Of a stretch of DNA of 61,566 nucleotides, positions 48,001 to 51,000 are shown in pieces. The position numbers are program-made. Every line of letters starts with the position of its first letter. Position 1 is the first letter of the stretch. The DNA comes from Escherichia phage P13771, in sequence record HG792104. The stretch is one strand, 5' to 3'.

Positions 48001-51000
48001 ATCCATGCGCAATCATGCCTGCACTGGTCGGGTATTATAACTGGAAAAGAACTCCTTATGATCGACCGATTTATACCACATCCACTGGTGCTACAGGAAA
48101 TAAAATATATTCCTGTGAGCATTATTCCGGCGGTGCAACATGGGATATTCGAAAGCCGTATATAGATAAGGTCCTGGTTATTAATACATCAGTATATGAT
48201 TAGTTGAAGCGAGTCTTTAATATTCATTTAAAATGTCTAAAAAGATGTATTATTAAAAAGTTTAGCGTGTTATCTGAATACAGGATATCTTAAATGAAGA
48301 GTATAGCAACACTGGTTGTGTGTGCAATCTCCGGGATTGCCTGTGTAAATTTATCTGCACATGCAGCAGAAGGAAACCATACAATTTCTCTGGGGTATGC
48401 GCACTTTCAGTTTCCGGGACTGAAGGATTTTGTAAAGGATGCGACTGCTCATAACAGGGAGACTTTCAGTCATTTCGTCAACAGAAACTACTTTTCTTCA
48501 TTGGGCGAATATACAGATGGTCGGGTCAGTGGATATGAAGGCAAGGATAAAAATCCACAGGGCATTAATATCAGGTATCGCTACGAGATAACGGATGATT
48601 TTGGCGTTATCACCTCTTTTACATGGACGCGTTCTCTCACTAACTCACAGACATTTATTGATGTGCAGTCAGCCGATCATACCAGGAAGATTAAGAATCC
48701 GGCAGCTTCTGCCAGAACGGATATCAGGGCGAATTACTGGAGTCTGTTAGCGGGGCCTTCATGGCGGGTTAATCAGTACATGAGCTTATATGCGATGGCA
48801 GGGATGGGCGTTGCTAAAGTTAGCGCTGACCTGAAAATTAAGGACAATATTAACAGTAGTGGCGGATTTTCTGAAAGCAACAGCACGAAAAAAAACTCCC
48901 TTGCGTGGGCTGCAGGTGCACAGTTTAACCTGAATGAGAGTGTTACACTGGATGTGGCTTACGAAGGTTCCGGCTCTGGCGACTGGCGCACGAGTGGAAT
49001 TACTGCTGGCATTGGCCTGAAATTCTAACCTGTATCCGGTAACCGTTTACTACCCGCTGTGATGGCGGGTTTTTTATTGCCCGTACAGGGCAAAAACCGT
49101 AAATTATGCGTGGGTGCCTTTCGGCTGATGGCTGGAGGGTGAACCTGAAGGCCTGATGTGGAAAGGCCCCGAGTCAACTTAACGTTAACCCGAGGCCCTA
49201 ACACTTCGTACCTTGACAAGTAGAAGGTTAGCGCCTCTCCACTCAGGAGGCAAGCGCTATGTCGCAAAAATCGCTTATCACCGTCACAATTTGTATGACG
49301 GTTATCTTCACTATCTGGATGTTGCACGGTTCGCTGTGTGAGTTCCGGCTGAATTTGTGGGGAGCGGAGTTTGCGGCGTTCTTACAGTGTAAGCAGTAGG
49401 AAAACCGCGACGGGGACGAAAGTCCCCGTCAACTGGTTGCTGAGGTTCAGCCGATATGGCACCCGTTTCAGGTGAGAGAATGAACGATAAAATTCTCCGG
49501 TATATGCAGCGTGTGGTGAGAAATTCCCGCAACCCTGAATTTATGAATGAAGTTAAAGACGCCTGCCTTAAAAAGCAGGCGTTTTGTTTTGAGGCACCTG
49601 ATGGCTTTCTGGTGCTGCGTTCTGTGCTCAGTGCTGATGGTATCCCTTATGTTCTGGTGTTGCTGGGCGTGTGTACGGGGAGTAACAGCGTTGAGCGTTA
49701 TCTGCCGGAGGTGAAGACATTAACCCGTCTGGCTGGCGGACGTTGGGCTGAATTTCATACGGCAAGGCGGGGATTTATCCGGCTGGGAAAACGTCTGGGC
49801 TTTGAGCGAATGCCGGATGATGAGGATGGCTTCATGGTGTTCAGGATAGCGGTCTGACTGCCACAGTTTTCATCATCGTGTTTAAACCAACATTGCAATT
49901 CACATTCTGACCCTGCTCCGGCAGGGTTTTTTTATTATCCAGGGGGCCATTATGGGTGGAAGTAAAGGTGGTGGTGATACCAAAGTAAAACCAACAGCAG
50001 CGCAAATAGCACAGGAAGAAGTGGCCTGGAAAGGGTGGCAGGATTACAAAAATATCCTCCGCCCGGCTGAAGATAACTTCATGGAAAAGGTCGATGACCT
50101 GAACAGTGAGCAGCAGTACGACAATATCGCTGGCACCACAAATCTGGGGTATCAGAAACAGTTTGGCGAAGCACGGAAGGAGCTGGCGGGTAATCTTGCT
50201 CAGTCCGGTGTTGACCCGTCCAGTGGTCGCTTTAACGCGGTAATGAATGCGAACCAGAGTGATCAGGTAACCGGGCAGATTGACACAACCACACGGGGGC
50301 AGGTATCGCAGGCAGATAAGTATGTTGCCGGGCTACAGGATGTTGCAGCTCTCGGTTCAGGTCAGAAGGCGGATGCGTTACAGAGTTTTAACTCGCTGGC
50401 AGACAGCAGTCTGGCAAAAGCTAAATCGGACGCACAGGCTGCGTTTACGAAACAGCAGGGGCGAGCCTCTCTTGTTGGCGCTGGTTTGGGTGCGGTAGGT
50501 GCATATGCGATGCATAAGGCTGGTGGTAGCGGAGGAAGTGGCGGTGCTAAAACACCGGGCACCGGCGCTAATGCCATTCAGCATCAGGCTCAGAACTGGA
50601 GACTGTGATTATGGAGTACGGTAAATACGAAACACTTGCGAGATACGGTTATACCGGAGCTGCCCGTCCACAGGGTGACTGGCAGACATCCGCAGCGCTG
50701 ACCCGCCAGCAATACGACGACTGGCGCACCAGATATTTACCCCGTGTAGCAAGGCTGGCTGACCTTGGGGAGAACAACAGTCTGATGAATGCACAGCTTG
50801 CACGGGTGGGAGGCCTTGCCACTTCCAGTCTCCGTACAGCGCAGATGGCGCAGGATAACCAGATGGCGAGATACGGGGTAAACCGCCCGGATAATCCCGA
50901 CAGTAATACGCTGGGGTTACGTAATGCCCTGGCAATTGCTGGCGCGAAAAATGGTATCCGTGAAGCCGAACAGGATCGCCAGATGAATATTCTGACGGGG

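What the first reader, a model, noticed from the sequence alone, without database searches (positions are those of the whole stretch)
49140..49440. Unannotated hok/gef-like type I toxin gene downstream of lom
A 46-codon ORF (49259..49399), below the ORF-track length cutoff, encodes a transmembrane helix followed by SLCEFR and EFAAF, matching the Hok/Gef signature. It has a strong Shine-Dalgarno sequence and is followed by a GAAA-loop hairpin, as in hok mRNAs; the upstream leader would be expected to encode mok and the antisense Sok RNA. A type I toxin-antitoxin module here could stabilise the prophage or act in abortive infection.
Basis: partly seen in the sequence, partly recalled or inferred. 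Interest (0 to 1): 0.55.

Follow-up and report, generated by a model that had tools for sequence, protein, structure and literature searches.

The report
Known Hok toxin cassette beside lom
The small gene downstream of lom is a real Hok/Gef-family membrane toxin with an antisense-RNA control region, but it is already annotated in public genomes and this exact peptide was already among homologues tested for toxicity, so it is an ordinary, known feature of Shiga-toxin phages.

Summary
ORF 49259..49399 (46 aa) has the stated motifs, an AGGAGG Shine-Dalgarno sequence and a GAAA-loop hairpin, and it passes Pfam's Hok/Gef threshold.

It sits in a self-contained cassette of about 373 nt (about 49092..49464). 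The cassette has its own promoter and a 5' end that pairs with the 3' end, like the tac/fbi pairing of hok. It also has a conserved antisense promoter (TTGCCT-17-TAACCT) identical to the validated sokW promoter, followed by a stable hairpin. No mok reading frame is conserved.

The gene is not new. RefSeq annotates the identical DNA as 'Hok/Gef family protein' in E. coli O104:H4 and more than 1,700 E. coli genomes. The exact peptide is entry 72_1589 of a 2025-26 Hok survey that tested 45 homologues for toxicity; the three it names as non-toxic are other entries.

It is a different locus from the published hokW-sokW. In this window hokW-sokW survives only as a degraded remnant at 61111..61227.

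Still open are its regulation, apparently without mok, and its role in the phage. Interest is low.

The parts
49052..49078 (+). Intrinsic terminator of lom. It marks the upstream boundary and insulates the cassette.
   Evidence: 8-bp stem at 49052-49070 followed by TTTTTTATT.
49077..49105 (+). Putative hok promoter: -35 TTGCCC (49077-49082), 17-nt spacer, -10 TAAATT (49100-49105).
   Evidence: Read from the sequence. The TTGnnn-17/18-TAnnnT arrangement is kept in 14 of 15 homologues whose upstream flanks are otherwise unrelated. The strict consensus scan did not call it.
49112..49464 (+). Predicted full-length hok mRNA. Both ends are inferred.
   Evidence: The Rfam hok-leader model starts at 49112. 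Homology with 75-85%-identical cassettes in other genomic contexts ends at 49464. The minimum-free-energy fold scores z = -6.2.
49112..49128 (+). tac-like 5' element, GGGUGCCUUUCGGCUGA.
   Evidence: It pairs with 49447-49464 in the minimum-free-energy fold. 93% of cells are paired across 64 cassettes, against 31-46% when the partner is slid.
49117..49139 (+). Alternative local 5' hairpin (metastable or activated-form tac stem). It is mutually exclusive with the tac/fbi pairing.
   Evidence: RNAalifold consensus, columns 10-19 with 23-32.
49150..49218 (-). Predicted Sok-like antisense RNA: a 5' tail of about 19 nt, a 16-bp hairpin at 49163-49199, then UUUCC.
   Evidence: The fold gives -37.2 kcal/mol, z = -6.4. 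The position is homologous to sokW. The ends are inferred and no expression data exist.
49225..49253 (-). Sok-like promoter: -35 TTGCCT (reverse complement of 49248-49253), 17-nt spacer, -10 TAACCT (reverse complement of 49225-49230). The -35 overlaps the hok Shine-Dalgarno sequence.
   Evidence: the hexamers and spacing are the same as in the sokW promoter of Sp5, and TTGnnn-17/18-TAACCT is present in 63 of 64 cassettes (TAAGCT in one). Mutating the sokW promoter abolished antitoxin activity (PMC8621323).
49192..49202 (+). ucb-like box, GAGGCCCUAAC. It lies inside the Sok target region.
   Evidence: It pairs with 49227-49237 in the alifold consensus and in the fold of the 3'-truncated mRNA. 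The columns are invariant, so there is no covariation.
49227..49237 (+). dcb-like box, GUUAGCGCCUC. It alternatively forms the anti-Shine-Dalgarno hairpin.
   Evidence: In the full-length fold GCGCCUCUCC pairs with GGAGGCAAGCGC and sequesters the Shine-Dalgarno sequence. In the truncated fold it pairs with ucb instead.
49245..49250 (+). hok Shine-Dalgarno sequence, AGGAGG.
   Evidence: GGAG is kept in nearly all cassettes.
49259..49399 (+). hok-family toxin CDS, 46 aa.
   Evidence: PGAP protein WP_000078907.1, 'Hok/Gef family protein'. The peptide is identical to 72_1589 in the bioRxiv survey 10.1101/2025.08.07.668861.
49408..49431 (+). Conserved 3'-UTR hairpin with a GAAA loop.
   Evidence: compensatory changes in the stem. 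hokW has an equivalent hairpin after its stop codon.
49447..49464 (+). fbi-like 3' element, UCAGCCGAUAUGGCACCC.
   Evidence: Conservation of the cassette ends exactly here.

Best explanation
This is a self-contained hok/sok-type type I toxin-antitoxin cassette of about 373 nt, carried as a moron after lom in a 933W/Sp5-type Stx2 phage.

Shown or supported by homology: the + strand encodes a 46-aa Hok-family inner-membrane toxin. The exact peptide is in the set of homologues tested for toxicity on overexpression elsewhere, and the three reported non-toxic are other entries.

Inferred from sequence, folds and conservation:
1. The toxin mRNA starts near 49112 and ends near 49464.
2. In the full-length form the 5' end (tac-like) pairs with the 3' end (fbi-like), and a local hairpin hides the Shine-Dalgarno sequence.
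3. 3' trimming would free the 5' end and let the ucb-like box pair with the dcb-like box. That exposes the Shine-Dalgarno sequence.
4. A constitutive antisense RNA of about 65 nt, transcribed from TTGCCT-17-TAACCT on the - strand, covers the ucb region. It should keep the mRNA silent and target the duplex for RNase III.

Unlike R1 hok, hokC and hokW, no mok leader frame is conserved. Control is therefore probably exerted on hok's own strong Shine-Dalgarno sequence. This step is inference only.

The likely biological role is a toxin released when Sok synthesis stops, for example on prophage induction or loss, by analogy with hokW-sokW. The role is not tested.
For: - Protein family: Pfam HOK_GEF is above threshold. 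Identity is 45% to K-12 HokA, 37% to HokW and 30% to Hok R1.
- Conserved residues: the seven residues reported as conserved in more than 80% of Hok peptides (M1, C16, T18, L30, C31, E32, E41) correspond to M1, C12, T14, L26, C27, E28 and E37 here.
- Coding constraint lies in the hok frame only.
- Leader homology: the Rfam hok-leader model RF01794 matches 49112-49270 on the sense strand with E = 2e-6. The control locus hokW matches on its sense strand at 113.5 bits.
- RNA folds: the minimum-free-energy fold closes the 5' end with the 3' end, z = -6.2. That pairing is 93% kept in 64 distinct cassettes against 31-46% when slid. Truncating the 3' end switches the fold to ucb/dcb pairing.
- Antisense gene: the promoter is identical to the validated sokW promoter and present in 63 of 64 cassettes (PMC8621323). 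The antisense hairpin scores z = -6.4.
- Conservation pattern: the non-coding leader (93-95% column identity) is as conserved as the CDS (90%).
- Cassette boundaries: the edges of conservation coincide with the promoter and the fbi element in unrelated contexts. These include after P2 ogr, between J and the tail fibre, on plasmids, and in tandem triplicate.
- Toxicity: the exact peptide is in the tested set. 42 of 45 tested homologues were toxic, and the three non-toxic ones are other entries.
Against: - There are no expression data for either RNA. Both transcript ends and the Sok terminator (only UUUCC follows the hairpin) are inferred.
- The tac/fbi pairs show no compensatory covariation because the 5' arm is invariant. 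The ucb/dcb columns are invariant too.
- The strict sigma-70 scan called neither promoter.
- The Rfam score is below the gathering threshold (37.9 against 59).
- NCBIfam HokA and Hok models are far below their cut-offs.
- The mok-independent mechanism has no experimental precedent that I found. [quoted passage not shown]
Confidence: 0.85

Rival explanations
1. It is a canonical mok-dependent hok/sok locus. A leader peptide is translated from a non-canonical or variable start and couples ribosomes to hok, as in R1.
For: The window has a TTG-initiated frame (49213..49341) in the same relative frame as R1 mok. It lies one codon from the position of the mokW ATG. The GAGG at 49192-49195 aligns with the mokW Shine-Dalgarno sequence. 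In R1, mok translation is required.
Against: - The TTG is absent from the 97%-identical Sp5 copy and from most cassettes.
- 37 of 64 cassettes have no ATG/GTG/TTG leader ORF reaching the hok Shine-Dalgarno sequence. The others start at -46, -103 or -130.
- That frame has the lowest synonymous share, 17%.
- In the window, TTG lies about 17 nt from the GAGG, too far for a normal Shine-Dalgarno spacing.
Confidence: 0.1
2. It is an intact-looking but silent relic. The toxin ORF survives, but the locus is never expressed at toxic levels and has no role for the phage.
For: Many chromosomal hok loci are inactivated; K-12 hokA, for example, is disrupted by IS150. The neighbouring hokW locus in this same window is degraded. 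No expression data exist.
Against: - The ORF length is preserved in 64 of 64 distinct cassettes.
- Purifying selection acts in the hok frame, and the regulatory RNA elements are more conserved than the CDS.
- The cassette has spread to several phage types and plasmids and occurs in tandem copies.
- The peptide is in the experimentally tested set, and none of the three homologues named as non-toxic is this one.
Confidence: 0.05
3. It is a chance small ORF with a fortuitous motif resemblance.
For: 46-codon ORFs are common in any sequence (one search lists dozens).
Against: The Pfam hit is above the gathering score. 56 homologues were found, of which all that carry a source name are called Hok/Gef. 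The ORF frame is conserved.
Confidence: 0

Closest known systems
Hok cluster 72, entry 72_1589 (Escalera-Maurer et al., bioRxiv 10.1101/2025.08.07.668861)
   Same: The 46-aa peptide is identical. It was cloned under an arabinose promoter as LRP157. The three homologues named as non-toxic are other entries. [quoted passage not shown]
   Different: The survey analysed coding sequences only. It explicitly did not analyse mok, Sok or mRNA structure, and it does not discuss the position beside lom in Stx phages.
hokW-sokW of Stx2 prophage Sp5 (Takada et al. 2021, PMC8621323)
   Same: It belongs to the same phage type and the same family. The antisense promoter hexamers and spacing are identical (TTGCCT-17-TAACCT). 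It has the same order of stop codon, hairpin and fbi element. It is shown to be a type I TA that is triggered on induction and that aids phage release.
   Different: It is a different locus: ECs_1245, at the right end of Sp5 on the opposite strand. HokW has 51 aa and is 37% identical. It has an in-frame mokW and scores 113.5 bits with RF01794 against 37.9 here. In this window hokW-sokW is only a remnant (61111..61227).
hokA (E. coli K-12 chromosome)
   Same: It is the closest named homologue: 45% identity and the best NCBIfam hit (HokA equivalog). Both end in ...AAFLxCK.
   Different: The score is far below the HokA equivalog cut-off (38.4 against 89 bits). blastn found no match in about two-thirds of E. 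coli genomes. hokA has an annotated mokA.
hok/sok (parB) of plasmid R1
   Same: The predicted regulatory logic is the same: tac/fbi end-pairing, ucb/dcb boxes, a 5' metastable hairpin, and an antisense RNA from a promoter overlapping the hok Shine-Dalgarno region.
   Different: The protein is 30% identical. No mok frame is conserved here. The context is a phage, not a plasmid.

Membership tests
Hok/Gef protein family (Pfam PF01848) | The Pfam HMM score reaches the gathering threshold. | tested here: met
   33.2 bits against 22, E = 4e-8, residues 8-44 on profile positions 6-42 of 42.
Hok/Gef protein family (Pfam PF01848) | A peptide of about 50 aa with an N-terminal hydrophobic helix and the conserved residues M1, C16, T18, L30, C31, E32 and E41 (numbering of the Hok logo). 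| tested here: met
   M1, C12, T14, L26, C27, E28 and E37 are present. C12, T14, C27 and E28 are invariant in the clade alignment.
Hok/Gef protein family (Pfam PF01848) | Toxic when overexpressed and located in the inner membrane. | not testable with these tools
   From the literature: the exact peptide 72_1589 is in the tested set and is not among the three non-toxic homologues. Its localisation has not been reported.
HokA equivalog / Hok subfamily (NCBIfam NF007290, NF007279) | The score reaches the curated cut-off. | tested here: not met
   38.4 against 89 bits, and 22.7 against 73 bits. It is a separate clade, cluster 72 of the survey.
hok/sok type I TA locus (R1 paradigm) | An antisense RNA gene (promoter plus hairpin) overlaps the toxin mRNA leader. 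| tested here: met
   TTGCCT-17-TAACCT lies on the - strand, identical to sokW, and is conserved in 63 of 64 cassettes. The hairpin scores z = -6.4. This is sequence-level evidence only.
hok/sok type I TA locus (R1 paradigm) | The antisense RNA is expressed and neutralises the toxin. | not testable with these tools
   I found no RNA data for this locus. It has been shown only for hokW-sokW.
hok/sok type I TA locus (R1 paradigm) | Long-range tac/fbi pairing joins the mRNA 5' and 3' ends. | tested here: met
   It is present in the minimum-free-energy fold. 93.3% of cells are paired against 31-46% when slid, but there is no compensatory covariation.
hok/sok type I TA locus (R1 paradigm) | ucb/dcb boxes give alternative folds of the full-length and truncated mRNA. 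| tested here: inconclusive
   The predicted folds switch as expected. The columns are invariant, so comparative support is not possible.
hok/sok type I TA locus (R1 paradigm) | An overlapping mok leader frame is required for hok translation. | tested here: not met
   37 of 64 cassettes have no leader ORF reaching the hok Shine-Dalgarno sequence, and the starts are inconsistent in the rest. An in-frame TAG inside the invariant sok -10 closes the hok frame in the window. The synonymous share is lowest in the mok-equivalent frame.
Rfam RF01794 (sok / hok leader) | The score reaches the gathering threshold of 59 bits. | tested here: not met
   37.9 bits in the window and 42.8-50.3 bits in clade members. 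hokW scores 113.5 and K-12 sokA 70.1.
hokW-sokW locus of Sp5 | It is the same locus (position and sequence). | tested here: not met
   hokW is ECs_1245 at the right end of Sp5 and is 37% identical. The published hokW primers match only the remnant at 61206-61226.

The most novel reading that the evidence does not exclude
Cluster-72 hok cassettes may be a mok-independent variant of hok/sok. In this reading the Sok-like RNA acts by occupying the ucb box, so that the dcb/anti-Shine-Dalgarno segment re-closes on hok's own strong Shine-Dalgarno sequence. In Stx2 phages that have lost hokW-sokW, such as this O104:H4-type phage, this cassette would be the only functional Hok and might take over the induction-triggered lysis-assisting role.
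Probability: 0.3. Interest if true: 0.4.

Novelty: already known. Interest (0 to 1): 0.15.

Why it matters
The result matters little beyond correct annotation.

It shows that 933W/Sp5-type Stx phages carry two distinct hok loci, and only one of them (hokW-sokW) has been studied. Deletion phenotypes reported for hokW-sokW may therefore be buffered by this second cassette. The O104:H4-type phage has only this one intact.

The apparent lack of mok, if confirmed, would be a modest mechanistic variation on the best-known type I toxin-antitoxin paradigm.

Tried and rejected
- I first assumed the locus was the published hokW-sokW. The published primers and the 51-aa HokW sequence do not match it. hokW is elsewhere in Sp5.
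- I looked for an in-frame mok (hokC/hokW style) and an out-of-frame mok (R1 style). Neither is conserved.
- I looked for compensatory covariation in tac/fbi. There is none, because the 5' arm is invariant.
- The strict promoter scan found nothing in 48950-49600. The promoters are inferred from conservation and homology instead.
- The GAAA hairpin is not a + strand terminator. It looks terminator-like only on the - strand.
- The genome-contig scan gave only 6 loci. Three are titled as unrelated taxa (Xanthomonas, Planococcaceae, Vagococcus), which suggests contamination.
- A literature search for hok with 933W and lom returned nothing.
- I did not build a covariance model, because the 360-nt model would exceed the calibration limit.
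- I did not run structure prediction, because it would add nothing for a 46-aa single helix.

Full report
**Observation.** SLCEFR (residues 25-30) and EFAAF (residues 37-41) are present. AGGAGG lies at 49245-49250, 8 nt before the ATG. A 10-bp hairpin with a GAAA loop lies at 49408-49431. The upstream gene (48294..49028) is an Ail/Lom outer-membrane protein. It ends in a strong intrinsic terminator at 49052-49078.

**Family assignment.** Pfam HOK_GEF matches above its gathering score, 33.2 against 22 bits, E = 4e-8. The best NCBIfam models are HokA and the Hok subfamily, both far below their cut-offs. BLASTP identity is 45% to K-12 HokA, 37% to HokW and 30% to Hok of R1. The seven residues reported as conserved in more than 80% of Hok peptides are all present.

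A database search found 56 relatives. The named sources are Escherichia, Shigella and Salmonella records, and every relative that carries a source name is called 'Hok/Gef family protein'.

**It is already annotated and already catalogued.**
- The identical 431 bases occur in E. coli O104:H4 and other STEC chromosomes, where PGAP annotates WP_000078907.1, 'Hok/Gef family protein'.
- About 1,750 of 5,426 complete E. coli genomes carry a related copy.
- Stx phage records call it 'small toxic polypeptide', 'MokW-like host killing' or 'Hok/Gef family protein'.
- Older records leave it blank, for example Sakai NC_002695.2 between ECs_1236 (lom) and ECs_1237.
- The exact peptide is entry 72_1589 (60%-identity cluster 72, a 'high-abundance cluster') in Table S2 of Escalera-Maurer et al., bioRxiv 10.1101/2025.08.07.668861. 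It was cloned as pAZ3::72_1589.
- That paper reports 42 of 45 tested homologues as toxic. The three non-toxic ones are 19_179, 60_1482 and 69_1540, so this peptide was toxic on induced overexpression. I infer this from their text; the figure is not held.

**It is not hokW-sokW.** The experimentally studied hokW-sokW of prophage Sp5 (PMC8621323) encodes a 51-aa HokW (MKQQKAM...DYESEK). It lies at the right end of Sp5 as ECs_1245, on the opposite strand.

In this window that locus is only a remnant at 61111..61227 on the - strand. The leader and sokW are missing, there is a 1-nt insertion after ATGAA, and an internal deletion of about 65 nt removes the C-terminal half. The cassette beside lom is therefore a second, separate hok locus of these phages. 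It is the only intact one in this window.

**Anatomy of the cassette.** Copies that are 75-85% identical occur in unrelated contexts:
- after ogr at the end of P2-like prophages;
- between J and the tail-fibre gene of a lambdoid prophage;
- on IncF and IncI1 plasmids;
- as three tandem copies next to serS.

In all of these the homology runs from about 49092 to 49464 of the window and stops there. Within these limits I find the following elements.

(a) A promoter-like TTGCCC-17-TAAATT at 49077-49105. The same arrangement is kept in 14 of 15 copies whose upstream flanks differ.

(b) A 5' end, GGGUGCCUUUCGGCUGA (49112-49128), where the Rfam hok-leader model also starts.

(c) A 3' element, UCAGCCGAUAUGGCACCC (49447-49464), complementary to that 5' end. 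The minimum-free-energy fold of 49112-49470 closes the two ends (-152.7 kcal/mol, z = -6.2). On 64 distinct cassettes the 15 named pairs are 93% paired, against 31-46% when the partner is slid. There are no compensatory changes, because the 5' arm is invariant.

(d) An alternative local 5' hairpin at 49117-49139.

(e) A GAGGCCCUAAC box (49192-49202) that can pair with GUUAGCGCCUC (49227-49237). In the full-length fold the second box instead helps to close a hairpin over the Shine-Dalgarno sequence. When the 3' end is removed, the predicted fold switches to the box-box pairing. This is the logic described for R1 hok mRNA.

(f) A conserved 3'-UTR hairpin with true covariation.

**The antisense gene.** On the - strand, TTGCCT (reverse complement of 49248-49253), 17 nt, then TAACCT (reverse complement of 49225-49230) reproduces the hexamers and spacing of the sokW promoter in Sp5. 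TTGnnn-17/18-TAACCT is present in 63 of 64 cassettes. Mutating the sokW promoter abolished antitoxin activity in the published work.

A transcript starting near 49218 would have a tail of about 19 nt, a 16-bp hairpin (49163-49199) and then UUUCC. It folds at -37.2 kcal/mol, z = -6.4.

The Rfam family called 'sok' (RF01794) is in fact a sense-strand model of the hok leader. It hits hokW on hokW's own strand at 113.5 bits and K-12 sokA at 70 bits. It hits this clade at only 38-50 bits, below the gathering score of 59. Rfam-based annotation therefore misses this clade.

**No mok.**
- The hok frame is closed upstream by a TAG (49229-49231) that lies in the invariant sok -10.
- The window's only leader ORF is TTG-initiated (49213..49341). 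It is absent from the 97%-identical Sp5 copy.
- Of 64 distinct cassettes, 37 have no ATG/GTG/TTG leader ORF that reaches the hok Shine-Dalgarno sequence. The rest start at -46, -103 or -130.
- Single-difference codons are 49% synonymous in the hok frame, against 31% and 17% in the other two. The mok-equivalent frame is the lowest.
- The leader is nevertheless at least as conserved as the CDS: 93-95% against 90% column identity. This points to RNA-level function.

**Mechanism (inferred).** The cassette most likely works like hok/sok. A stable, folded and translationally closed toxin mRNA is slowly activated by 3' trimming. An unstable antisense RNA blocks the activated form.

Because no mok is conserved and hok has its own strong Shine-Dalgarno sequence, I propose that the antisense RNA acts by occupying the ucb region. 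The anti-Shine-Dalgarno segment would then close on the hok Shine-Dalgarno sequence again, and the duplex would be cleaved. None of this is shown experimentally.

**Role.** By analogy with hokW-sokW, in which sokW disappears on induction and HokW aids lysis and phage release, a role on induction is plausible. Prophage stabilisation or abortive infection are equally untested.

**Verdict.** The mok expectation fails. The gene is not novel: it is annotated in current RefSeq and its peptide has been catalogued and tested. The residual novelty lies in the apparently mok-less regulation and in recognising it as a second hok locus distinct from hokW-sokW.

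Noticed in passing
window 61111-61227 (- strand): A degraded remnant of the published hokW-sokW locus. The leader and sokW are missing, there is a 1-nt insertion after ATGAA, and an internal deletion of about 65 nt removes the C-terminal half. The 38-aa ORF is MKAAKGDVNHPAHLCITVIVTALITKKDLCKGGIPRHL.
   Followed up: yes
L011:1532-2838 (E. coli STEC1012, CP061270.1): Three tandem copies of the same hok cassette lie next to serS. They encode two different peptide variants.
   Followed up: partly
L005, L006, L007, L010, L012 (about 1217-1880 in each): The cassette recurs immediately after the ogr/Delta zinc-finger gene, at the end of P2-like prophages and next to the host flank (serS, tRNA genes, yidD). 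On one IncF plasmid it lies together with ogr.
   Followed up: partly
window 49456-49857 (+): The downstream hypothetical ORF as called by PGAP starts at ATG 49456, inside the fbi element. Phage P27's annotation starts at the later ATG 49480, which has a GGTGAGAG Shine-Dalgarno sequence. The ORF has no Pfam or NCBIfam match.
   Followed up: no
window 4705-4790, 5240-5329, 13536-13619 (- strand): Three matches above threshold to Rfam sRNA-Xcc1 (RF02221) lie in the early region of the phage.
   Followed up: no
window 14455-14642 (- strand): C4 antisense RNA (RF01695) and isrK (RF01394) lie side by side, as in P1/P7-type immunity and antirepressor control regions.
   Followed up: no
window 24146-24394 and 25803-26062: Three tRNA genes are followed by STnc100 (+) and AsxR (-). 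AsxR ('Anti stx2 sRNA') fits the Stx2-converting phages that best match this window.
   Followed up: no
window 51067-51318 (+) and 52625-61045 (+): An 83-aa glycine-rich small protein is annotated 'bacteriocin' by PGAP. A single ORF of 2,806 aa fills the right arm.
   Followed up: no
L016, L017, L019: Contigs filed under Xanthomonas pisi, a Planococcaceae MAG and Vagococcus sp. carry this enterobacterial hok cassette at 76-100% peptide identity. This is probably assembly contamination.
   Followed up: no
L038:1350-1397: In one viral contig the first 48 nt or so of the cassette (the tac region) are replaced by unrelated sequence. The rest is intact, so this is a copy lacking the 5' end-pairing partner.
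   Followed up: no
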